Origin: an uncultured euryarchaeote
GTDB lineage: Archaea; Thermoplasmatota; Poseidoniia; Poseidoniales; Thalassarchaeaceae
DNA: 53,394 bases
Reading direction: 5' to 3'
Assembly: GCA_937876055.1 (NCBI GenBank)
Contig: CALEIW010000242.1
Location: 1 to 53,394, forward strand
Below, in pieces: positions 5,066 to 14,825 of the stretch (its first letter is position 1; the number at the start of each line of letters is the position of its first letter). The notes beneath the pieces are model-generated. The model worked only from the letters and a program-made list of their open reading frames with translations, searched no databases and had not been told where the DNA came from. A program made the position numbers and the translations under genes.

Positions 5066-8000
5066 TCAAAGGAAGTCGCTTAGTGTCATTACCGTCACTG
5101 TATCGTCATTGAATAGGGAATCAACGCTATCGGACAACCAATCAACGCGTTGCCTAGTGTAAAGGTCAACTCCGTAATTCTCCATAACATGTTGAGTGAC
5201 TTTGATGTATTTTCTAACAGAACCTTCCGAAACAGTAAGCGCGATTTTACCACCGCACATGGATGAATCATCTACTCCTTTGTCTAATCTATCCGCTCCT
5301 AATTTGTCCGCCTTTATACATCGACCTGCCAATGGCATTCTCCTGTATGACTGTCCGCATCTAACACAACGGACTTTCTGTCTAGTGAAAGCAACAAGAT
5401 TTCCTCTTAAATCAGGTAAGAAGTGCGATTCAATCACCTGACTTGCAACCTTAGAAACATCCACTGGACGCAACTTTGATCCTAATTCCAATTGAGCATT
5501 CATTTTGTCGACCATAGTCTCCAATGTCTTGTAGGATGAATTAGCAGGACCCGCATCTAGAGCACCGGAATCATGAGTCCAACCATATCCACGCAAGTCC
5601 CCGTAAGTGCCGAGACGATGCTCAACAATTTCGATGTGAGATTTCAACTCAGCAGGATGTGGCTGTCCTTGAGAAGCCTCATAGAATGCTCTAGGGTATT
5701 GCCATGAGCAGTCTACATTCAATGCCTCTTTGTCAATCTCGGAGGGATTCAGCCTAGTGGTCAATACGAGAGGCGCATCCATCCTTCCTCCTCGATTGGC
5801 TGGAAGAATTGCTCTTGAGAAATTCAACAAACCATCCATCAACATCATGATACTGTCCTCATCACCATCACAATTGCGACGCTTGGCTGCATGGAATAGT
5901 GGGTGGGCATAACCGGCCGATGCATCGGTCCAACCAATGATTCGACACAAAACGCCTCCAGAGGTGTGAGGTGCTAGACCAATTGCCAAATGGCCAACTA
6001 AATCATCAGCGGAGCTTACTCTGTAGAATGGTTCCATTCCATAGAATCTAGTCAGTAATTCATCGACGAAATTGCAAGTCGAAGTTAGATGCTCTATTGC
6101 TAGGGAGGAAGGGATGAAATCCTGAGGAAATAACTCAAGGATTTGTTCATCTCCGGTTAGTGGGTTACCGTCGACATCATGCGAGTATCCCAGTTTGCTT
6201 AGTATCTCCCAAGAAGTATGGATTTCAGAAGGTCGGAAATGAGTTACCGGCACATCAATCATATCGTATCTTGCGGTTCCATCTCTAAACACTGAGAGTT
6301 CATTTCTTGCTCTCAGTATGCCTTTTTCCAACGGTTCAGGTGTTTGTTCATAGGACATTAGACCCTTTACAGACTTGATTTTTTCAGGCAATCTGTCTAG
6401 GCCAAGAGAACGACGCTTTACCTCAAGTAATCCTGCGACAGGAATACTTGTTCTTTGGCCTAATCTTCGAGGAGTTCTATTTCCTCTAATCGGCCGGGGA
6501 CGAGTCTTCCCTCCACATTCTTCAGGAACAGAGGAATCCGGCCGATTATGGCATCGTAACATCGGCGATTCCATTCCGCATTTTACACAAATTCGAGGGC
6601 CGGTTTCAACTCGAATTCGACCCCGCTTTGCAGCTTCACCAAGCAAGCGCTGCGGGCCTCCATGATCGCCAATTGGGAATAATGAGTGGACTAATGGTTT
6701 CATTTGACGCCTGCTGGCTTTCTCAGGTCGACCCATTCTAGAACCAACTCGACAGGGTACTGCATCTTCCCATCTCAAATCGGATAATTTCCTGACCAGC
6801 CAAAGCGATCTATCTACCTCATGATCATCTAGAAGATGTTGTGCTGCCATCAATTCCTTCGGGTTCGACGGGCCGGGGTCTTCGATTGCTTCAGCCGCTT
6901 CGTCACCTTCTTTTTCGGTTTCGGCGATACTCATCCCTCTTTGTCGAGCGGCGGTTTGTGCTCTAACACGCTCAACATCACGCTCCGCTTCGATCTCCTC
7001 TCTCCGAACATCTTCCGCTCGTAGAGTTTCAGTCGCCGCTCTAATTTTGGCAACCCTGTCCGTAAGATGCGATACTGCGTCTGCGCGCATTTTGATTTGT
7101 GAGCCTTCTACCTCAAGTCCAAGCCCTTCCAATAGCGCTTCCCACTTTGATGGGATTACAATATCTCCACGTCGGTGGTGGTGCTGTATTCCCAGAACCA
7201 TTAGTGAAGATTTGATAACTCCGTGCGTCTCAACCTTAGTCCATCTAGGCCAAACCCCTGTTGAAGGTATATCGAGCCCGATATCCTCGAGTTTTTGTTC
7301 AGGTGACCAGCCTTGAACAACATCAGGAATCCTTAGACCCTTACTCTTGATTTTGGAATTCAACAACGCCTCGATTAATTTCCCTGCAAATGATAGTGGT
7401 AAGTCCGACCACCATGGGTTGAATGGAGGAGGGGGGGCGGTTCCGAATTTGATACAAATTCGCTTAATTTGTGACCAATCCATCTCAAGATTACGAAGGT
7501 GACGATTCCAATCCCTCTTTCGACGGACACGATCCAAAGCTGGCTCTCCACCACGACTAATCGCACCATTGAATGGCAATCCAGGAGGCAAATGTTCTCT
7601 ACTTACACCAATTATTGATGCGAATTGTTCTACTTTTTGTGGTTGATCGAGATTTTCTGCGAGGTCAGCCGCCCACCAGTCTTTATTGTAAGGAGAGGGG
7701 ACAAGATTCTTGTTATTCTCAAGGAACTCCCCAAAGCCAACTAACATCTCTCCAGAGTCCCATAGGCTGACAACTTTATCCTTGATACTATTCCATTCCT
7801 CCATCGAATCTATTCGATGGAATCCACCATCCTCGAGCAATACCATTGGCCCTTCGATATCGACGGCAGGAGTAACCGCCGCTGCTTTTCCTGGGCGCTC
7901 GACTTTCATCTGGGTTCCAACTGCTAGGAATCCCTGCATTGCTTCCATAGAAACGGGGTTTATTCCTGCCGCGGCCAATCCAGAAGCCCTACTGCGACCA

Positions 8001-9034
8001 TATCTTATTCGGAAAGCACCAGGCTGGCTGGGCTCTCCAAAAACAGGTCTGCCAGCGATTACATCATCCATGAATCGAGAATCAGTTTTGATTACTCTAC
8101 TCTTGAAAGAGACTTCCTGCCCCTCAGTTTTTCCTTTTGAGGCAAAGTGAGCAATGAAATCCCATCCAGGAATGTTTAGTCGCTCTGTGTGCTTCTGAAC
8201 TTTAGGGGCCTTGAGACATAACCCCTCACCAATTACCAGCAGAACTCCTCCTCTAACCCGGGCTCCATCTATATTGCGAACTTCCTTGAATCCCGAACAT
8301 TCGATATCCTCTGTTGACTCTCCATTAATCATCACCGGACAGGCCCTTACAATCATCTCAATTTCTTCTGGTGGAGGTTTGTATTGCAATCCCTTTCGAT
8401 AGAGTCCAAATTCCTCCTTAACTCTCTCAACTTCGGGAGTACTAGGAATATATCGATTCAATCCTAGTTCGCGCCTAACCATGTCGCCAATCAGCACACC
8501 AAGAGCCTGCGCAGTACCTCCTGCGGCTCTAATTGGTCCGCAGAATTCGATTGATAGGAACTCTGTCCCATCTTCATTATTGAGAATCTTGACATCGCCG
8601 ATTCCCTCCAGAGGGGCGACTAGAACGGCCTCAGTAAGTACTGCCAATCCGACACGGAGGCCTGTGTCTATCGATTGTCGAACATCGGCCGTTAGTTTGT
8701 GCATTCTTTTTCCAACTTCGACGGCGATTTGAATCGAAGCAGTCTCACGATCTACCTTGGTAAGCAATTTACGTAAGTCATCCTCAATTCTGATTGGGTC
8801 ATCATCTGGAGTTGGTCTGAGGTATTCCTCAAGCAATTTCTCAGTCCTACTCGCCAAGTCCGCAGCACGCGGAATTTCAACAGTTTCGGCAAAATCCAAG
8901 CCTTTGGAACGAGCCACTTCTGCGATTTGGTAAGCCTTCTCTGTATTTTCTTCAAGCCAGTCTCTGTAGGACTCCAGCTCGCTAGAAAGACGAGCCTCAT
9001 CCACTACGATTTCTGGACTGTCTTGACCTACCAT
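5066..9034 (-). CDS. polC: DNA polymerase II (PolD) large subunit DP2
   Basis: The ORF is about 1320 aa. The N-terminus YRDWLEENTEKAYQIAEVARSKGLDFAETVEIPRAADLASRTEKLL aligns with the known DP2 N-terminus. Internal and C-terminal zinc fingers are present (ICVKCG...RCH; VRCVRCGQSYRRMPLAGRC...MCGGK). An upstream ATG at 9091 is also possible. Confidence 0.95.
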   Translation of the reverse strand: MVGQDSPEIVVDEARLSSELESYRDWLEENTEKAYQIAEVARSKGLDFAETVEIPRAADLASRTEKLLEEYLRPTPDDDPIRIEDDLRKLLTKVDRETASIQIAVEVGKRMHKLTADVRQSIDTGLRVGLAVLTEAVLVAPLEGIGDVKILNNEDGTEFLSIEFCGPIRAAGGTAQALGVLIGDMVRRELGLNRYIPSTPEVERVKEEFGLYRKGLQYKPPPEEIEMIVRACPVMINGESTEDIECSGFKEVRNIDGARVRGGVLLVIGEGLCLKAPKVQKHTERLNIPGWDFIAHFASKGKTEGQEVSFKSRVIKTDSRFMDDVIAGRPVFGEPSQPGAFRIRYGRSRASGLAAAGINPVSMEAMQGFLAVGTQMKVERPGKAAAVTPAVDIEGPMVLLEDGGFHRIDSMEEWNSIKDKVVSLWDSGEMLVGFGEFLENNKNLVPSPYNKDWWAADLAENLDQPQKVEQFASIIGVSREHLPPGLPFNGAISRGGEPALDRVRRKRDWNRHLRNLEMDWSQIKRICIKFGTAPPPPFNPWWSDLPLSFAGKLIEALLNSKIKSKGLRIPDVVQGWSPEQKLEDIGLDIPSTGVWPRWTKVETHGVIKSSLMVLGIQHHHRRGDIVIPSKWEALLEGLGLEVEGSQIKMRADAVSHLTDRVAKIRAATETLRAEDVRREEIEAERDVERVRAQTAARQRGMSIAETEKEGDEAAEAIEDPGPSNPKELMAAQHLLDDHEVDRSLWLVRKLSDLRWEDAVPCRVGSRMGRPEKASRRQMKPLVHSLFPIGDHGGPQRLLGEAAKRGRIRVETGPRICVKCGMESPMLRCHNRPDSSVPEECGGKTRPRPIRGNRTPRRLGQRTSIPVAGLLEVKRRSLGLDRLPEKIKSVKGLMSYEQTPEPLEKGILRARNELSVFRDGTARYDMIDVPVTHFRPSEIHTSWEILSKLGYSHDVDGNPLTGDEQILELFPQDFIPSSLAIEHLTSTCNFVDELLTRFYGMEPFYRVSSADDLVGHLAIGLAPHTSGGVLCRIIGWTDASAGYAHPLFHAAKRRNCDGDEDSIMMLMDGLLNFSRAILPANRGGRMDAPLVLTTRLNPSEIDKEALNVDCSWQYPRAFYEASQGQPHPAELKSHIEIVEHRLGTYGDLRGYGWTHDSGALDAGPANSSYKTLETMVDKMNAQLELGSKLRPVDVSKVASQVIESHFLPDLRGNLVAFTRQKVRCVRCGQSYRRMPLAGRCIKADKLGADRLDKGVDDSSMCGGKIALTVSEGSVRKYIKVTQHVMENYGVDLYTRQRVDWLSDSVDSLFNDDTVTVMTLSDFL

Positions 9035-9174
9035 GTCGCATACGCTCCGCTGCTGAACATTCGACGACCGCACGAGACCGTCCAAGAACATTCACTGTCA
9101 TCCTGCTCTTCTAACCCCTTCCGAGTGCGAACCTTCATCCGATTACCACCAAGCCGAAATGGAAGGGAAGAGGC

Positions 9175-9759
9175 ATGTCGACCACTGTTGCTGAAGCAAA
9201 ACAACGTCTAATAGAACGTGTTCGTGATTTGGCATATCTGCACTCTCCTGACGATTTATTCACTCTTGCCAGCGGCCGACAGAGTCCACATTTCTTTGAT
9301 ATGAAGCCAGTAATGATGGATCCGGAGTGTGCTCATCTAATCGGCGTACTGCTCCACACAGAAATAGAATCAATCGGTGGAGTTGACGCGGTCGGCGGGC
9401 TCGAATTAGGAGCGGTACCACTCACCGGTATTGCGATTGCAAAGGCCGGAAAAGGATCTGACCTCCGAGGCTTCTTAGTTCGCAAAGAAGCAAAGGGGCG
9501 AGGCGGTCGTAAAACAGGAAATCCGCCTGGAATTGAGGGGTCAACCCTGCGAGAAGGCGACCGAGTTGTATTGTTGGAAGATGTAACAACAACTGGAGGC
9601 TCCGCTCTCAAAGCCGCTAATCGATTAATCGATATGGGGTGCGATGTAGCGGCTTGTATTACTATTCTAGATCGAGAGGAAGGTGGACAAGACGCCTTCA
9701 AATCTGCCGGAATTAGTTTGCATCCACTCATCCTTCGCTCGGATGTAACGGGTGAGTGA
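9175..9759 (+). CDS. pyrE: Orotate phosphoribosyltransferase
   Basis: The PRPP-binding loop VVLLEDVTTTGGS is present, the length is 194 aa, and a GLELGAVPL motif is present. Confidence 0.9.
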   Translation: MSTTVAEAKQRLIERVRDLAYLHSPDDLFTLASGRQSPHFFDMKPVMMDPECAHLIGVLLHTEIESIGGVDAVGGLELGAVPLTGIAIAKAGKGSDLRGFLVRKEAKGRGGRKTGNPPGIEGSTLREGDRVVLLEDVTTTGGSALKAANRLIDMGCDVAACITILDREEGGQDAFKSAGISLHPLILRSDVTGE

Positions 9760-10155
9760 ATGTCGGAACATGTGATTGATTCCAGCGAGCCGTATCATCC
9801 TGAGAAACTCGAAAAAAAGGACTATGTCGGCGCGGCTGCTTACTTTGAATTGGATTTACGAACAGGTATCATTCTCAAAGTAGAAGAATTCCCTGAGATG
9901 CGTAAACCCTCTTACAAAATTGAAGTTGATTTCGGGCCTGTGATTGGTAAGCTTTGGACCTCGGCCCAGATTACCAACTACTCTCGAGCAGAGTTGGTTG
10001 GCCGAACCGTAGTAGGTGCGTTGAATCTTGGCGACAAGACACTGCCGACCGGTTTTGTCAGCGAATTCCTTGTTTTAGGGGCCTTAGACCCAGATGGTAC
10101 GGTTAGGCTGTTAGAACTTCCAGAAGGAGTCAACCCCGGGTCGATGGTTGCATAG
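9760..10155 (+). CDS. tRNA-binding domain protein (CsaA/EMAP-like)
   Basis: The sequence LDLRTGIILKVEEFPEMRKPSYKIEVDFGP...SAQITNYSRAELVGRTVVGALNL matches the CsaA OB-fold pattern. The start abuts the pyrE stop (TGAATG). Confidence 0.75.
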   Translation: MSEHVIDSSEPYHPEKLEKKDYVGAAAYFELDLRTGIILKVEEFPEMRKPSYKIEVDFGPVIGKLWTSAQITNYSRAELVGRTVVGALNLGDKTLPTGFVSEFLVLGALDPDGTVRLLELPEGVNPGSMVA

Positions 10156-10190
10156 AGAGAGTGAATAACCTCCTCATAACTTCGGCAATC

Positions 10191-10724
10191 ATGCAAGAAG
10201 AGGCTGGTTACGCCGATAGCGACCAAATCATGTCTGTAGAATTTGACAAAAAAATCATCATTTATTGGTGGTTAATGGCTAATTTAGGCCTCCTAACGTC
10301 ATTTATAGGTATCCCATTGATGCTGATTTGGCTTCCATTTGGCTGGATAGTTCACCAGAAGCAGTACGAACATATGAGCGGAGCCCTGACTGCTCGTTCC
10401 CTCAATATGCGTATGGGTTGGTTATTCAAGAAACAACAAAACATCGCTCTAGACAAACTTACTGACGTATCAATTTCCGAAGGCCCAATTCTGAAAGCAC
10501 TCGGGGTTGTCAAGATGCAATTCGAGACAGCAGGCGCTGCACCTTTCATACTGTCAGGTGTGAAAAATGCGGATCAATTCCGCGATGTCGTTCTCCAACA
10601 CAGAGATTCATTGATGGCGGCCCCATCCTCACAGTCTAGCTCATCAACTGAATCCAGTGACGTTCTAATTGAAATCAGAGATTTACTCAAAGAAATCAAT
10701 ACCAATTTATCCAGTGAAGAGTGA
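10191..10724 (+). CDS. Membrane protein with a bacterial PH (bPH_2, YdbS/YdbT-like) domain
   Basis: A two-helix hydrophobic N-terminus is followed by GWLFKKQQNIALDKLTDVSISEGPILKALGVVKMQFETAG, which fits the bPH_2 pattern. The ORF-track start at 10161 is GTG, with ATGs at 10191 and 10230. Confidence 0.6.
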   Translation: MQEEAGYADSDQIMSVEFDKKIIIYWWLMANLGLLTSFIGIPLMLIWLPFGWIVHQKQYEHMSGALTARSLNMRMGWLFKKQQNIALDKLTDVSISEGPILKALGVVKMQFETAGAAPFILSGVKNADQFRDVVLQHRDSLMAAPSSQSSSSTESSDVLIEIRDLLKEINTNLSSEE

Positions 10725-10770
10725 TTATTCAATCGTCATGCTATTGGACTAGACGCCACTCGTTGATATC

Positions 10771-11262
10771 ATGCCTACCATGGTTAGAATGACGACAAGC
10801 GCTGGAGATATTGACATTGCACTGTATACCGAGGATTGTCCTGAGACAACAGGTAACTTCCTCAAATTGGTGGATGAGGAGTTCTACAACGGATTACACT
10901 TTCACCGTGTAATTAAGAATTTCATGATTCAAGGCGGATGCCCGAGATCAAAGGACCCGTTTGATGGAAGAGCAGGAACAGGCGGCCCTGGTTGGAAAAT
11001 CCCTTGCGAGGCATCCGCATTGGCAAAAAAACACGACAGACCCGGATTATTTTCTATGGCAAATGCAGGCCCTAACACAGGCGGCTCACAATTTTTCCTA
11101 ACAACCGTTCCAACACCTTGGTTAGACGGAAATCACGCGGTTTTTGGAGAGGTAATCGAGGGCATGGAGAATGTCTACAAGATTGAGAACTGTGATACGA
11201 AGCCCGGAGATAGGCCTTACGACCCTCAAAAAATCATCTCCGTTCAGCGATTAGAAGAGTAA
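10771..11262 (+). CDS. Cyclophilin-type peptidyl-prolyl cis-trans isomerase
   Basis: Motifs FHRVIKNFMIQGG, SMANAGPNTGGSQFF and HAVFGEV are present. Confidence 0.9.
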   Translation: MPTMVRMTTSAGDIDIALYTEDCPETTGNFLKLVDEEFYNGLHFHRVIKNFMIQGGCPRSKDPFDGRAGTGGPGWKIPCEASALAKKHDRPGLFSMANAGPNTGGSQFFLTTVPTPWLDGNHAVFGEVIEGMENVYKIENCDTKPGDRPYDPQKIISVQRLEE

Positions 11263-11280
11263 TCGTTGCATACAAAGCCA

Positions 11281-11308
11281 ATAATTAATTTTATTAATAA
11301 CTAATTAA
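11281..11308 (+). promoter_or_regulatory. AT-only tract with palindrome ATTAAT-TTT-ATTAAT; candidate TATA box and operator for fumC
   Basis: The tract is a 28-nt run of A/T only. The inverted repeat at 11284-11298 was read directly. It lies 20-35 nt upstream of the ATG at 11319, consistent with a leaderless or short-leader archaeal promoter. Confidence 0.35.
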
Positions 11309-11318
11309 GCGCCTGTTT

Positions 11319-12920
11319 ATGGCCAAACATCGGGCGGGCGACCGTCGCATAATCAGTATCAGCATACCAGAAGAGCTTGCAAGGAAGCTAGACAGAAGGG
11401 TCGGAAAAGGCCGAAATGATGGCAGATCCGCAACAATAACAAAAATGATACAAAACGGCCTGGAAACTGAGCAAACTGTAGCAATACAAACTCCAGTTAG
11501 CGAGCAAAGAAGTGCATCCGGAGTCCAAGGTGAAATCAGAATTGAAAAAGATACAATGGGAGAGTTAGAAGTCCCAGCGGATCGATACTTTGGAGCACAA
11601 ACCGCTCGCTCGCTAATCAACTTCGATATAGGCACTGACACGATGCCGCCATCTGTAATCAGAGCCTTCGGAATTCTAAAACAAGCCGCCGCAGAAACTA
11701 ATGTCGATCTCGGCCAATTAGATCCTCAGATTGGCGCCCTAATTTCTTCTGCTTGCGATGAAGTAATTTCTGGCTCATTGGATGAACATTTTCCTCTTCG
11801 AGTTTGGCAAACGGGTTCGGGGACACAAACCAACATGAATAGCAACGAAGTAATTGCTAATCGAGCAATAGAGATGGCTGGGGGTGAATTAGGTAGCAAA
11901 TCACCAGTGCACCCTAATGATCATGTTAATCGCGGTCAATCCAGCAACGACACTTTCCCAACAGCAATGCACATCGCAGCCGCCGAGGAAATCCACCATC
12001 GGTTATTGCCTGCAGTTAGATTACTACACAACTCTCTGGCAACAAAGGCGGATGAGTTCGAAAATATAGTAAAAATCGGCCGAACTCACCTAATGGATGC
12101 AGTCCCACTTACTCTTGGCCAAGAATTCGGCGGCTATGTTTCCATGTTATCATCTGATATTCGTCGTATTGAGGCCGCTTGGGACGATTTACTAGAATTG
12201 GCTCTGGGTGGTACAGCAGTTGGAACAGGCCTAAACACCCATTACGAATTCGCTGACAAAGTAGCCGATAGAATCGCCGACAAGACCCAATTACCATTCG
12301 TCTCGGCTGAAAATAAATTTGCTCAATTAGCGGCTCATGATGCAATCGTAGCTGCTTCAGGGGCACTCAACACTCTCGCTGTAAGTCTAATGAAGATTGC
12401 AAATGATATTCGTTGGATGGGTTCAGGGCCACGTTGCGGATTTGGCGAATTGTCTCTACCAGCCAATGAACCAGGGTCGAGCATCATGCCAGGAAAGGTG
12501 AATCCAACTCAATCCGAAGCTATGACAATGGTGTGCTGCCAGGTAATGGGCAACCACACAGCGATTAGCGTTGGAGGCAGTCAAGGAAATTTTGAACTCA
12601 ACGTCTACAAGCCTTTGATGATCTACAATTTACTACACAGCACTAGGTTACTTGCAGATACTTGTAGGGCCTTTACTGAGAAATGTGTTGATGGGCTTGA
12701 AGCCAATGAAGGAGTAATCGCTTCTCATCTTGAGAATAGTTTGATGCTGGTCACAGCTTTGAACAATCACATTGGATATGATAGCGCTGCAAAGATTGCA
12801 AAACACGCTCACTCAAGTGGTTCTACGCTAAGGGAGTCAGCGCTTGAACTTGGATTAGTCACAAACGATCAATTTGACCAATGGGTGAAACCTAGAGAGA
12901 TGATAGGTCCTAAAGAGTAG
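11319..12920 (+). CDS. fumC: Class II fumarate hydratase with an N-terminal ribbon-helix-helix (CopG/NikR-like) extension
   Basis: FumC homology starts at [26 protein letters not shown] (residue ~73) and includes [16 protein letters not shown]. Residues ~9-48, [40 protein letters not shown], fit the RHH pattern. There is no in-frame start codon between the RHH and the conserved EKD.MG block. Confidence 0.9.
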
Positions 12921-13101
12921 TCTAACTGGAGATAGTTCTGAACTAACGAAATCATACATTGACGGGAGAAAACCTCCGCAATGATTGATAATTAGATGGA
13001 ATGGGGCTCAGCCGTACTTTGGTACAAGGTGGGAGCAGCAGGGGGTTCTGCACATGGGGGAGCATCCCCCCCTGCTATCTCCGCAGGGTCCGGTTCCATC
13101 C

Positions 13102-13120
13102 GGGCTTGCGCCCTTTTTTT
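13102..13120 (+). terminator. GGGC-UUGC-GCCC hairpin followed by T7 (13114-13120); plus-strand oligo-T terminator
   Basis: This is the longest T run in the spacer, preceded by a small GC hairpin and by the larger G5/C7 hairpin at 13037-13076. It may terminate fumC read-through or a short RNA. Confidence 0.4.
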
Positions 13121-13307
13121 CCCGGGTAGATGACTACATTGCTCCGGAGAGCCTTTTTGTCGTTTCCCGCTTCTTCGAGGATCGCTCCCCGTTTCTGCGT
13201 TTCCATTTCCCTCCCCGGCTCTCACCGGTTTGTTCTTTGGAATGAGTGCCGGTCCTCCACGCGTCTCCGCGCTCTTGTTCCCGCTGTGTTTCCCTTAGGT
13301 TTCTTTT

Positions 13308-13327
13308 CCCCTTCCTTACGTCCGGTT
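13308..13327. repeat. Direct repeat copy 1: ccccttccttacgtccggtt
   Basis: It is 19/20 identical to 13491-13510. It is preceded by gtgtttccc, as copy 2 is by gtgttttcccc. Confidence 0.7.
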
Positions 13328-13490
13328 CTTGTCTTCCTTTGTTCCCCGCAGATTCGCCTCAAGCTTTTCCCATCTCTGGTTCTCTCGCTCTTCGCGTATG
13401 CACTCACGGTCTGGTTAGTTGGCACGGTATGCGTTTTCCCTGCCTAAGCAGTGCGGTTGTGTTTTCCCCAACTTTCCCTGTGGCTTCCTT

Positions 13491-13510
13491 CCCCTTCCTT
13501 TCGTCCGGTT
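13491..13510. repeat. Direct repeat copy 2: ccccttcctttcgtccggtt
   Basis: It is 19/20 identical to 13308-13327 and lies 183 nt downstream. Confidence 0.7.
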
Positions 13511-13781
13511 TTCTCCACCTCAGTTCGACCGTATCTCCCCTGGCCCAAGTGCCAAGTTCGATCATCCCCGGTTTCCTTGCGGTTTCCGGTTCTACCACCC
13601 CGAGTTCGGGGTTCGGTTCTGTGGCCCGCGGTGTTTGCCGAAGCTCGCACCACACCACTCTCCCAGAGCGGCATCTTTGGTCTGAACGGCGGAGGCACAT
13701 AAACATTTCGCTAAATGAGGTACTGTGGACCGGAAATAGGGGTCTAGGGATGTTAATTTCCACTGCATCCCAGGCCGAGAA

Positions 13782-14825
13782 TTATAGATTTCTTAACATC
13801 CTTAGTCGAGCTCGAAGATCTGATTTTTCAGAATATTCTTCAGGCTCTTCTTGGTGTGAATTTATTCTTCTCTGTATAACTTCAGATTCTACAAAGTAGA
13901 CTCTTCCCTGGTCATCTCCGAGTACTATTCTATTGGATGATGAATCCATCTGTCGTAACCTAGAATCATGGGATATTTTATTCGATACTTCACCAATTAT
14001 CATTATCCAAACATTCACTCCATCGAAGGAAGACGCCCAACCATTAGTTTCGACAATTTCGACTGCATCAACAGAGCCAGGTAGATTTTCTGATCCGGTT
14101 TTCATTGAGATGCTACCATCTTCATGACCAGAAATCCAGCCATCGGGGCTAGAAGCAATCGAGGTCACCAAGGTTCCCGCCTCGAGGACTGATTCATCCA
14201 ATGAATTCAAGGAGCCATCGGCGTGTCCAAAAATCAAATCTTTATTTTCTCCACAACCACAGGTGACCGGACTGTTTGTTGGTAGCGCGTTATGCTCGAC
14301 AGAGGCTTCAGGGCGAACTCTGAGATAACCGCACCTGGGTCGTCCTAATCCTAGAACGATACCCCCAGAACCATCTGAAGAAATATGCCAAGAACGTTCA
14401 GCGATTACCCAACGTTCCAATTCATTTCCCAATTTATCGAATCTCCAAATGGTGGATTCGATGAAGTCGGCGACCTCTAACTCGTAAACCGATGAGGTCG
14501 CCCAGATATTCCCATCCGCTGCTAATACGTAGTCACTTGCTCCTTCCAATTTTTTATTCCAAAGAAGCGACCCATTCTCTATGTCAACTGCATGAAGAGA
14601 ATCAGATGCTGTGACATAAACACTGCCTGAATCTACAGAGATGTCTGAAATCGGCCCGCTAATTGAAACTCTCCAACGTTCAACTCCACTGGAAGCATCC
14701 CAGGAAACAAGTAATCCATCGTGAGAGCCAGCGAATAGTAAATCCTCGACTAGAAGTAATGCGGAACAGGAGCTGGAAAGGTCTCGCACATAGGACGAGA
14801 TAGCCTCAAGGGAAAGTCCGGTCAC
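13782..14825 (-). CDS. PQQ-like / WD40-like beta-propeller repeat protein
   Basis: The pattern 'hydrophobic-x-D-x-x-x-G-x-x-x-W' repeats (SWDASSGVERWRV, AVDIENGSLLWNK, ...). There is no signal peptide. The start is GTG at 14825. Confidence 0.7.
   Translation of the reverse strand: MTGLSLEAISSYVRDLSSSCSALLLVEDLLFAGSHDGLLVSWDASSGVERWRVSISGPISDISVDSGSVYVTASDSLHAVDIENGSLLWNKKLEGASDYVLAADGNIWATSSVYELEVADFIESTIWRFDKLGNELERWVIAERSWHISSDGSGGIVLGLGRPRCGYLRVRPEASVEHNALPTNSPVTCGCGENKDLIFGHADGSLNSLDESVLEAGTLVTSIASSPDGWISGHEDGSISMKTGSENLPGSVDAVEIVETNGWASSFDGVNVWIMIIGEVSNKISHDSRLRQMDSSSNRIVLGDDQGRVYFVESEVIQRRINSHQEEPEEYSEKSDLRARLRMLRNL

What the first reader, a model, noticed from the sequence alone, without database searches (positions are those of the whole stretch)
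11281..11540. NikR/CopG-like ribbon-helix-helix domain fused in frame to class II fumarase, with a palindrome over its own TATA region
Seen:
- The fumC ORF starts about 72 codons upstream of the point where fumarase homology begins ([23 protein letters not shown], compared with E. coli RSEKDSMGAIDVPADKLWGAQT).
- Residues 9-48, [40 protein letters not shown], follow the strand-helix-helix pattern of CopG/NikR N-domains (compare NikR RVTITLDDDLLETLDSL...NRSEAIRDILRSAL).
- No ATG, GTG or TTG lies between the RHH and the conserved EKD.MG block, so the fusion seems to be translated as one protein.
- Immediately upstream, a 28-nt A/T-only tract contains ATTAAT-TTT-ATTAAT (11284-11298). It sits where the TATA box for a near-leaderless transcript should be.

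Established knowledge: RHH domains bind DNA as dimers, and FumC is a homotetramer.

Inference: this may be a 'trigger enzyme', a fumarase that also acts as an autoregulator or metabolite-sensing repressor. I am not aware of this architecture being described.
Basis: partly seen in the sequence, partly recalled or inferred. Interest (0 to 1): 0.65.

Follow-up and report, generated by a model that had tools for sequence, protein, structure and literature searches.

The report
DNA-binding domain fused to archaeal fumarase
In Marine Group II archaea (Poseidoniales) the TCA-cycle enzyme fumarase carries a conserved N-terminal ribbon-helix-helix DNA-binding domain, and its promoter holds a conserved fumarase-specific A/T dyad, so the enzyme probably also controls its own gene, though this is untested.

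Summary
ORF 11319-12920 encodes 533 aa in three parts:
- an RHH domain (residues 1-48; Pfam RHH_1 21.5 bits against a cutoff of 20.5; 32 of 35 orthologous N-domains also hit);
- a variable linker (residues 49-72);
- a complete class II fumarase (TIGR00979, 766 bits; catalytic motifs intact).

The fusion is not an annotation artefact. dN/dS is 0.035 for the RHH, 0.029 for the enzyme and 0.30 for the linker. The N-domain is encoded in 274 GTDB species genomes. The best 80 loci are Poseidoniales of both families apart from one probably mis-binned contig, and 75 of 83 sequences examined have an intact ORF of about 530 aa.

The promoter idea needs correcting. The conserved element is TTTATTAATAA[C/G]TWATTAA (11290-11308), a TATA box plus the dyad TTAATAA-S-TWATTAA. 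It occurs at 58 fumC promoters and nowhere else in 662 kb. TATA spacing implies a leaderless mRNA starting at the RHH ATG.

A PutA-like autorepressing "trigger enzyme" is the best reading (about 0.5) but is unproven. Fourteen Poseidoniaceae-type loci keep the RHH but only the TATA half, and nothing supports metabolite sensing. No paper describing this fusion was found.

In passing: a conserved, covarying structured RNA of about 750 nt with no Rfam match lies just downstream (about 13030-13760).

The parts
11319..12920 (+). RHH-FumC fusion gene (533 codons plus stop)
   Evidence: ORF list. Pfam RHH_1 + Lyase_1 + FumaraseC_C. TIGR00979 766 bits. 120 full-length orthologs of 529-545 aa. 75 of 83 sequences examined are intact.
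11319..11462 (+). Ribbon-helix-helix domain, codons 1-48: basic N-arm [10 protein letters not shown], strand IISISIP, helix A 18-29, GRS turn, helix B 36-49
   Evidence: RHH_1 21.5 bits, above the 20.5 cutoff; 32 of 35 orthologs hit. AF2 helices 18-29 and 36-50. dN/dS 0.035. 80% mean identity to the query. Invariant M1 R5 G7 R9 R10 I11 S15 P17 E18 A21 L24 D25 G29 G31 R36 S37 A38.
11463..11534 (+). Flexible linker, codons 49-72
   Evidence: 25% mean identity and 2.72 bits entropy. dN/dS 0.30. Modelled as coil, with pLDDT 45-48 over residues 41-60 rising to about 83 by 61-70. Length varies by a few residues among orthologs.
11535..12917 (+). Class II fumarate hydratase core, codons 73-533
   Evidence: TIGR00979 positions 1-458 match residues 73-530. 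SS-loop [10 protein letters not shown] at 386, HPNDHVN at 198, GSGTQTNMN at 166. PDB fumarases align from residue 63-74. dN/dS 0.029.
11290..11297 (+). TATA-like box TTTATTAA at -29 to -22 from the ATG (implies a leaderless mRNA)
   Evidence: TTATTA starts at -28 or -29 in 72 of 82 loci. The 8-mer occurs only twice in 91 kb of other intergenic DNA, and one of those is an unmasked fumC promoter. No Shine-Dalgarno-like motif in -20 to -1.
11290..11308 (+). Conserved fumC-specific 19-nt element TTTATTAATAACTAATTAA (candidate operator)
   Evidence: The 18-mer core with up to 2 mismatches is at 58 fumC promoters and 0 other sites in 662 kb on both strands. Flanking positions carry about 0.1-0.6 bits against 0.5-2 bits inside the element.
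11294..11308 (+). Dyad TTAATAA-C-TAATTAA centred on C11301 (-18)
   Evidence: Arms are 6 of 7 complementary here and 7 of 7 in 9 loci. The centre is always C (30) or G (8), never A or T.
11284..11298 (+).
   Evidence: Present at these coordinates. The left ATTAAT is conserved only in close relatives such as L003-L015 and L053/L058, so as a whole it is not the selected unit.

Best explanation
The gene encodes a bifunctional protein: an active class II fumarase tetramer carrying, on a flexible linker of about 24 residues, an N-terminal ribbon-helix-helix DNA-binding domain.

Shown:
- The fusion is translated as one protein.
- Both domains are under equally strong purifying selection.
- The N-domain belongs to the CopG/RHH_1 family.
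- The architecture is found throughout the sampled Poseidoniales and was not found elsewhere.
- The gene's own promoter carries a conserved, gene-specific A/T-rich dyad built from TTATTAA/TTAATAA heptads, overlapping the TATA box and extending to about -11.

Inferred:
- Pairs of RHH domains from one tetramer dimerise, giving two RHH dimers per tetramer.
- These dimers bind the heptads.
- Binding occludes TBP/TFB/RNA polymerase on a leaderless promoter, so fumarase represses its own synthesis. This would be a PutA-like trigger enzyme.

Whether fumarate or malate modulates binding is unknown.

The confidence of 0.5 refers to the full model including autorepression. The fusion being real and translated is about 0.97, and the N-domain being a DNA-binding RHH is about 0.85.
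For: Fusion is real and translated:
- dN/dS is 0.035 for the RHH, 0.029 for the enzyme and 0.30 for the linker.
- Identity to the query is 80% / 81% / 25% for the same three regions.
- 120 of 120 best homologs are 491-545 aa; all but one mis-started call carry the domain.
- 274 GTDB species genomes encode it. The best 80 loci are Poseidoniales of both families, apart from one contig labelled Verrucomicrobiales that is probably mis-binned.
- 75 of 83 sequences examined have intact ORFs; the rest are contig ends or frameshifts.

RHH assignment:
- Pfam RHH_1.
- Strand-helix-helix order in AF2 models.
- The top Foldseek hits are RHH antitoxins (ParD) at TM 0.5, although the E-values are not significant.
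- The domain is basic (12 K+R against 5 D+E), whereas the linker is not (1 K+R against 4 D+E).

Enzyme is intact.

cis element:
- Fixed position and conservation against unrelated flanks.
- 58 against 0 occurrences.
- TTTATTAA is not the generic TATA of these genomes.
- At least one heptad is in 82 of 82 promoters and two or three in 58, against a background of 0.002 per 50 nt. The dyad centre is restricted to C or G.
- Of the 6 intergenic heptads elsewhere in 660 kb, 4 lie 64-110 nt upstream of fumC.
- The divergent fusion lineage (L202/L203) also has TTTAATAA at -30 and ATTATTAATT at -10.

Precedent: PutA's N-terminal RHH represses putA/putP (PMC5879082).
Against: - No experiment shows DNA binding.
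- 14 of 82 promoters (TTTATTAAAYGCC type; Poseidoniaceae/Poseidonia where named) keep every predicted DNA-contact residue of the RHH but lack the second half-site. Four more have compact or shifted variants. The extension therefore cannot be an obligatory operator.
- The element overlaps the TATA box, so part of its conservation may simply reflect promoter function. An A/T-rich -10 region could also act as a promoter-proximal or melting element.
- No further target sites could be assessed genome-wide.
- The profile search against PDB sequences and the fold search gave no significant RHH hits.
- AF2 confidence for the N-domain is only moderate: pLDDT 72 alone and about 40-55 in the full-length model.
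- The tetramer geometry could not be modelled.
Confidence: 0.5

Rival explanations
1. DNA-tethered fumarase for genome maintenance. The RHH anchors the enzyme on the chromosome, specifically or not, so that fumarate or malate is produced next to DNA. This would be a hard-wired version of the fumarase role in the DNA damage response. The promoter element would then be just a strong promoter.
For: [quoted passage not shown] The same applies to eukaryotic cytosolic/nuclear fumarase (PMC5711358; PMC6068284). The invariant basic N-arm [10 protein letters not shown] would suit backbone contacts. Class B promoters lack the second half-site yet keep the RHH.
Against: No repair genes are specifically linked. 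The PolD neighbour is only syntenic in one subclade, and upstream genes differ elsewhere. The gene-specific dyad at its own promoter is left unexplained by this model. RHH domains are typically sequence-specific.
Confidence: 0.15
2. The RHH-fumarase is a transcription factor for other genes, such as C4-dicarboxylate or TCA genes, rather than mainly for itself. The fumC promoter element would be a strong TATA/PPE or the site of a different regulator.
For: Trigger enzymes often control transport or pathway genes; PutA controls putP as well as putA (PMC5879082). Regulon members could not be assessed because only about 8-kb neighbourhoods were available.
Against: No heptad pair was found in any other promoter in 662 kb, including the 53-kb window. 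The metagenome scan was uninformative.
Confidence: 0.15
3. The N-domain has lost DNA binding and serves as an oligomerisation, localisation or regulatory module for the enzyme.
For: The RHH_1 score is only marginal. The family is narrow, with no close stand-alone relatives: 45 hits in 1.84 billion representatives. The predicted DNA-facing strand residues are I11, S13 and S15, which are small or hydrophobic.
Against: Hallmarks of DNA-binding RHH proteins are invariant: the basic N-arm, the G-R-S N-cap of helix B, and a net charge of +7. Ser/Thr on the ribbon is common in DNA-binding RHH proteins such as CopG and NikR (my own knowledge). The FumC tetramer needs no extra oligomerisation domain.
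Confidence: 0.1
4. Annotation artefact: translation really starts at M80, and the upstream frame is an untranslated leader or a separate small RHH gene.
For: Databases hold many short 'RHH, CopG family, partial' proteins, and some long contigs have separate RHH and fumarase calls.
Against: Those are contig-end fragments or frameshifts in long-read assemblies; PolD is split in the same contig. dN/dS of 0.035 over the RHH codons, the in-frame continuity in 75 of 83 sequences, and the TATA box 22-29 nt before the RHH ATG all argue against it.
Confidence: 0.02

Closest known systems
PutA (proline utilisation A) of E. coli, Salmonella and Pseudomonas putida: an RHH-enzyme trigger enzyme
   Same: An N-terminal RHH DNA-binding domain is fused to a catabolic enzyme, and the protein represses its own gene by binding operators in its promoter region (PMC5879082). 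The enzyme is an oligomer, which gives multiple RHH dimers.
   Different: The enzyme is unrelated (PRODH/P5CDH against fumarase). The organisms are bacterial rather than archaeal. PutA's switch (FAD reduction and membrane binding) has no evident counterpart here. The N-domain here hits only generic RHH_1 and no PutA-specific family. DNA binding is untested.
CopG / Arc / MetJ family (Pfam RHH_1) stand-alone repressors and RHH antitoxins (ParD)
   Same: Same fold signature: strand, helix A, G-x-S/T turn, helix B. The best structural neighbours are ParD antitoxins. The candidate operator is a short A/T dyad or heptad repeat, as for Arc, CopG and omega operators (my own knowledge).
   Different: Those proteins are small and stand alone, or are fused to toxin-binding tails. 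Here the partner is a 461-residue metabolic enzyme and there is no toxin gene nearby.
NikR
   Same: An N-terminal RHH followed by a C-terminal tetramerising, ligand-binding domain. The tetramer presents two RHH dimers to a two-part operator (my own knowledge). Weak sequence similarity exists.
   Different: NikR models score 13-14 bits against cutoffs of 83-175. The C-domain here is a lyase-fold enzyme, not an ACT-like nickel sensor.
Canonical class II fumarase FumC (E. coli 1FUO, human FH)
   Same: The enzyme body is full length with all signature motifs, and scores at equivalog level.
   Different: Canonical FumC proteins are about 460 aa and have no DNA-binding domain. Alignments to every solved structure start at residue 63-74 of this protein.
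Moonlighting fumarase in the DNA damage response (B. subtilis Fum-bc, yeast and human FH)
   Same: A class II fumarase that associates with DNA or chromatin and has a second, non-TCA role (PMC5711358).
   Different: Those enzymes have no dedicated DNA-binding domain and act through metabolite signalling. Here a DNA-binding domain is covalently attached.

Membership tests
Class II fumarate hydratase (FumC, TIGR00979) | Full-length match above the curated equivalog cutoff | tested here: met
   766 bits against a cutoff of 664.75; residues 73-530 cover model positions 1-458.
Class II fumarate hydratase (FumC, TIGR00979) | Lyase_1 plus FumaraseC_C domains and catalytic signatures (GSSxMPxKxN SS-loop, HPND-H-VN, GSGTQxNMN) | tested here: met
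   Pfam 6e-113 and 4e-24. Motifs at residues 386, 198 and 166, invariant in 53 orthologs.
Class II fumarate hydratase (FumC, TIGR00979) | Homotetramer with fumarate/malate interconversion activity | not testable with these tools
   Only monomer prediction is available. No assay is possible.
Ribbon-helix-helix, CopG family (Pfam RHH_1, PF01402) | Profile match at or above the gathering score | tested here: met
   21.5 bits against 20.5 for the isolated 52-aa domain; 32 of 35 orthologs match, best 2.6e-6. The score is below the cutoff within the full protein (17.3) and for the 74-aa piece (20.3), so the match is marginal but consistent.
Ribbon-helix-helix, CopG family (Pfam RHH_1, PF01402) | Strand, helix, turn, helix topology with a G-x-S/T/N N-cap on helix B | tested here: met
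   AF2 gives helices 18-29 and 36-50, with strand character at 9-11, and the same helices in the full-length model. G35-R36-S37 is invariant or nearly so. The monomer model cannot form the inter-subunit ribbon.
Ribbon-helix-helix, CopG family (Pfam RHH_1, PF01402) | Significant structural similarity to solved RHH proteins | tested here: inconclusive
   The top Foldseek hits are RHH antitoxins ParD2/ParD1 at TM 0.50-0.57, but E > 5. The PDB profile search found NikR only at E = 1.2.
Ribbon-helix-helix, CopG family (Pfam RHH_1, PF01402) | Obligate dimer that binds DNA through an antiparallel beta-ribbon | not testable with these tools
   No multimer or DNA-complex modelling, and no binding assay.
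NikR | Match to NikR models and a C-terminal nickel-binding ACT-like domain | tested here: not met
   NikR models score 13.4-14.1 bits against cutoffs of 83-175. The C-terminal part is a fumarase.
PutA-type trigger enzyme (RHH-enzyme autorepressor) | RHH domain covalently fused to a metabolic enzyme | tested here: met
PutA-type trigger enzyme (RHH-enzyme autorepressor) | Operator sites for the RHH in its own promoter | tested here: inconclusive
   A conserved fumC-specific dyad/heptad element overlaps the TATA box, but 14 of 82 loci have only the TATA half, and binding is untested.
PutA-type trigger enzyme (RHH-enzyme autorepressor) | Substrate-dependent switch between enzyme and repressor states | not testable with these tools
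   No data.
PutA-type trigger enzyme (RHH-enzyme autorepressor) | Homology to PutA itself | tested here: not met
   No PutA/PRODH family among the Pfam or NCBIfam hits. The relation is an analogy of architecture only.
Type II toxin-antitoxin RHH antitoxin | Adjacent cognate toxin gene | tested here: not met
   The neighbours are cyclophilin upstream and a non-coding RNA-like region downstream.

The most novel reading that the evidence does not exclude
The RHH does more than autoregulate. It stations a TCA-cycle enzyme on DNA so that local fumarate/malate chemistry is coupled to chromosome biology such as damage signalling or chromatin state. That would make Poseidoniales the first organisms in which the fumarase-DNA link seen in bacteria and eukaryotes is hard-wired into the polypeptide. 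A related version is that occupancy of the enzyme's active or allosteric site by fumarate or malate changes how the two RHH dimers are presented, giving a direct C4-dicarboxylate-sensing transcription factor.
Probability: 0.12. Interest if true: 0.8.

Novelty: new variant of a known kind. Interest (0 to 1): 0.58.

Why it matters
Poseidoniales are among the most abundant archaea in the surface ocean and remain uncultured, and almost nothing is known about how they regulate transcription.

- An order-wide fusion of a DNA-binding domain to a central TCA-cycle enzyme is a concrete, testable case of enzyme-mediated gene control in archaea.
- It comes with a defined 19-bp candidate operator, so it can be tested in vitro with recombinant protein and without a culture.
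- It extends the trigger-enzyme concept (PutA, BirA, NadR) to fumarase and to archaea.
- It bears on the still unexplained association of class II fumarases with DNA in bacteria and eukaryotes.
- Practically, it explains spurious 'CopG family, partial' proteins in databases, and it flags that 50%-identity clustering hides the domain behind ordinary fumarase representatives.

Tried and rejected
1. NikR membership. Rejected: far below the cutoffs and no metal-binding domain.

2. Rejected as the conserved unit: the left half is not conserved beyond close relatives.

3. Profile search of the N-domain against PDB sequences. Only non-significant hits: RNase PH at 0.24 and NikR at 1.2.

4. Foldseek of the N-domain model. 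The hits have the right fold class, but E > 5.

5. Exhaustive search of 1.84 billion representatives for stand-alone relatives or other fusion partners. Only 45 hits, nearly all fragments of the same fusion, plus two weak stand-alone RHH proteins (P0272, P0273). This gave no insight into the domain's origin.

6. Metagenome-wide scan of the 18-mer to find a regulon.

7. Covariation between promoter class and RHH contact residues. None was found; the residues are identical in both classes.

8. Generic-promoter explanation for TTTATTAA. Rejected: the 8-mer is essentially absent from other intergenic DNA.

9. 'Separate small RHH gene' on long contigs. Rejected as frameshift artefacts.

10. Literature searches for RHH with fumarase, Poseidoniales with fumarate hydratase, and Marine Group II with RHH. 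No description of the fusion was found.

11. Rfam on 10500-14000. No hit.
Full report
**Observation**

The window carries an ORF at 11319-12920 (+) of 533 aa. Fumarase homology begins at residue 72-74: TIGR00979 fumC_II scores 766 bits over residues 73-530. Every solved class II fumarase aligns only from residue 63-74 onward, and E. coli 1fuo residues 3-462 match query 72-531. The catalytic signatures are intact: [10 protein letters not shown] at 386, HPNDHVN at 198 and GSGTQTNMN at 166.

The 72-residue extension matches Pfam RHH_1 over residues 12-48. The score is marginal in context (17.3 and 20.3 bits against a cutoff of 20.5) but above the cutoff for the isolated 52-aa domain (21.5 bits). 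In addition, 32 of 35 orthologous N-domains hit RHH_1 independently, best E = 2.6e-6.

The only in-frame start codons in the first 110 codons are M43 (inside helix B), M80 and M109.

ATTAATTTTATTAAT sits at 11284-11298. The A/T tract is a 21-nt pure run, then one C, then 7 nt (28 of 29 A/T, 11280-11308). It is by far the most extreme in the window, with 0.04 such runs expected by chance.

**Is the fusion real?**

Searching with the N-terminus returned 132 relatives. All are short fragments from Poseidoniales, and some are named 'ribbon-helix-helix protein, CopG family, partial'. The short proteins on long contigs are frameshift artefacts of long-read assemblies; PolD is split in the same contig.

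The full-length search gave 120 of 120 best hits at 491-545 aa. All carry the N-domain except one mis-started gene call.

A scan of GTDB species representatives found the N-domain in 274 genomes. The best 80 loci are Poseidoniales from both Thalassarchaeaceae (MGIIb) and Poseidonia/Poseidoniaceae (MGIIa), apart from one contig labelled Verrucomicrobiales that is probably mis-binned. Of the 83 sequences examined, 75 have an intact ORF of about 530 aa; the others are contig ends or frameshifts.

Conservation by region:

| Region | Mean identity to the query | dN/dS |
|---|---|---|
| RHH, residues 1-48 | 80% | 0.035 |
| Linker, residues 49-72 | 25% | 0.30 |
| Fumarase, residues 73-533 | 81% | 0.029 |

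The N-domain is therefore translated and is as constrained as the enzyme, and it is joined by a freely evolving tether.

AlphaFold2 gives strand-helix-helix for the isolated domain (pLDDT 72; helices 18-29 and 36-50). In the full-length model the fumarase body is confident, the N-domain has low confidence, and the linker is coil. The fold search returns RHH antitoxins (ParD) first at TM about 0.5, but without statistical significance.

An exhaustive search of 1.84 billion representatives found only 45 hits, essentially all fragments of this fusion. The domain is therefore a narrow, lineage-specific RHH with no close stand-alone relatives. A more divergent fusion lineage (P0266; L202/L203) is also labelled Thalassarchaeaceae/Poseidoniales.

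**Promoter**

I aligned 82 upstream regions on the ATG. TTATTA starts at -28 or -29 in 72 of them. That places a TTTATTAA box at -29 to -22 and, by the usual archaeal TATA-to-start spacing (established knowledge), puts the transcription start at or next to the ATG. The mRNA would therefore be leaderless and must include the RHH codons. This is an inference, not a measurement.

The upstream regions fall into these groups:
- 64 loci continue as TTTATTAATAA[C/G]T[A/T]ATTAA, reaching about -11 (class A; the window is 11290-11308).
- 14 loci (Poseidoniaceae/Poseidonia where named) read TTTATTAAAYGCC... with no extension (class B).
- 4 loci have compact or shifted variants.

Flanking sequence is unconserved between distant loci, at about 0.1-0.6 bits.

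The element is specific to the gene:
- The 18-mer with up to 2 mismatches occurs at 58 fumC promoters and nowhere else in 662 kb on both strands.
- TTTATTAA itself is essentially absent from 91 kb of other intergenic DNA.
- Every fumC promoter has at least one TTATTAA/TTAATAA heptad, against a background of 0.002 per 50 nt.
- Of the six other intergenic heptads, four lie 64-110 nt upstream of fumC.

The extension reads as a dyad, TTAATAA-S-TWATTAA. Its arms are 6 of 7 complementary in the window and 7 of 7 in nine loci. Its centre is only ever C or G, as expected for a two-fold symmetric site.

Its left half is conserved only among close relatives.

**Interpretation**

The best-supported model is a PutA-like trigger enzyme. 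The FumC tetramer (established for the family) would present two RHH dimers on flexible linkers. These would bind the heptad dyad that overlaps the TATA box and the region between TATA and the start site, and so repress fumC. PutA provides the precedent for an RHH-enzyme autorepressor (PMC5879082).

Weaknesses:
- Binding is untested.
- The element overlaps the TATA box, so promoter function explains part of its conservation.
- Class B promoters keep an RHH with identical predicted contact residues but only one heptad.
- A wider regulon could not be assessed. The metagenome scan was swamped by chance hits in AT-rich genomes.
- Nothing supports metabolite sensing.

Rivals:
- A DNA-tethered fumarase linked to the DNA damage response, by analogy with B. 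subtilis and eukaryotic class II fumarases (PMC5711358).
- A regulator of other genes.
- A domain that no longer binds DNA.
- The annotation-artefact reading, which is refuted by dN/dS and the conservation of the reading frame.

**Comparison and novelty**

The protein is a member of the FumC family and of Pfam RHH_1. It is not NikR, not homologous to PutA, and not an antitoxin (no toxin gene nearby).

As a kind, a DNA-binding domain fused to a metabolic enzyme that regulates its own gene is already known. The combination of RHH with a class II fumarase, its archaeal setting and its order-wide conservation were not found in the searchable literature. Annotation pipelines have labelled fragments as CopG-family proteins. 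I rate it a new variant of a known kind, with interest of about 0.58.

**Side finding**

The roughly 800 nt between fumC and the next gene (about 13030-13760) have the following properties:
- GC is 57% against 47% for the window, and the + strand is pyrimidine-rich.
- There is no Rfam match.
- DNA-level conservation is 67-98% in more than 45 loci.
- Substitutions show no codon periodicity, and indels are mostly not multiples of three.
- A consensus fold has 117 pairs, 38 of them with compensatory double changes.
- 95.5% of cells are paired, against 40-50% when partners are slid. The covariation score is 0.273, against 0.06-0.10.
- Invariant G-U pairs place it on the + strand.

It looks like an undescribed structured RNA of about 750 nt and deserves its own evaluation.

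Noticed in passing
window 13030-13760 (+), between the fumC stop (12920) and the PQQ_2 gene end (13782): A conserved non-coding element of about 750 nt. GC is 57%, the + strand is pyrimidine-rich, and there is no Rfam hit. It is 67-98% identical in more than 45 Thalassarchaeaceae-type loci. Substitutions have no 3-nt periodicity and indels are mostly not multiples of three. A consensus fold has 117 pairs, 38 with compensatory changes; 95.5% of cells pair against 40-50% in the slid controls; invariant G-U pairs indicate the + strand. The motifs TTCCYTTNCGTCCGGTT and GTTTTCCCC repeat within it, and L020 has two extra copies. It is a candidate novel large structured RNA. A gene caller placed a 168-aa ORF with no Pfam match here in L001, which is probably spurious.
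   Followed up: partly
L039, L049, L052, L056, L061, L064, L067, L068, L070, L071, L075, L078, L079, L081: -22 to -1 before the fumC ATG: Class B fumC promoters replace the A/T extension with a GC-rich GCC-N6-GGC-like inverted repeat directly after TTTATTAAA; L079 has a perfect GCCGACGTCGGC. This may be a different regulatory site in a Poseidoniaceae sublineage.
   Followed up: no
many loci (e.g. L026, L027, L030, L033, L035, L045, L046, L048, L073, L074, L082), about -45 to -55 before the fumC ATG: A recurrent 'cACTGCtc' motif lies upstream of the TATA box in loci whose upstream genes differ from the window's. It is not present in the window. Its meaning is unknown; it could be the end of a neighbouring gene or a regulatory site.
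   Followed up: no
L001 (2.5-Mb contig) and L002 (285-kb contig): Polished long-read assemblies carry frameshifts that split RHH-fumC, and also PolD, into several gene calls. This creates spurious stand-alone 'RHH' proteins in protein databases. In addition, 50%-identity clustering hides the fusion behind ordinary fumarase representatives.
   Followed up: yes
L064 (NZEQ01000005.1): A contig labelled 'Verrucomicrobiales bacterium isolate ARS100' carries a typical Poseidoniaceae RHH-fumC with a class B promoter. It is probably a mis-binned archaeal contig.
   Followed up: no
L203 1819-2480: In the divergent fusion lineage, one contig has an in-frame TGA where its relative P0266 has GGA, at the RHH-linker boundary. 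It also has an assembly gap of Ns and a duplicated segment inside fumC, so it is a sequencing or assembly error or a pseudogene.
   Followed up: partly
window 5066-11262: Conserved synteny lies upstream of fumC in the window's subclade: PolD large subunit (-), phosphoribosyltransferase, a tRNA-binding-domain protein, a small membrane protein, and cyclophilin. Other Poseidoniales have different upstream genes, yet the promoter element is retained.
   Followed up: partly
fumarase body, residues 73-533: Among the nearest hits that do not align to the N-domain are bacterial class II fumarases (Acidimicrobiales, Pyrinomonadaceae) at 64-69% identity. This hints that the Poseidoniales enzyme is of bacterial type. 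No phylogeny was made.
   Followed up: no
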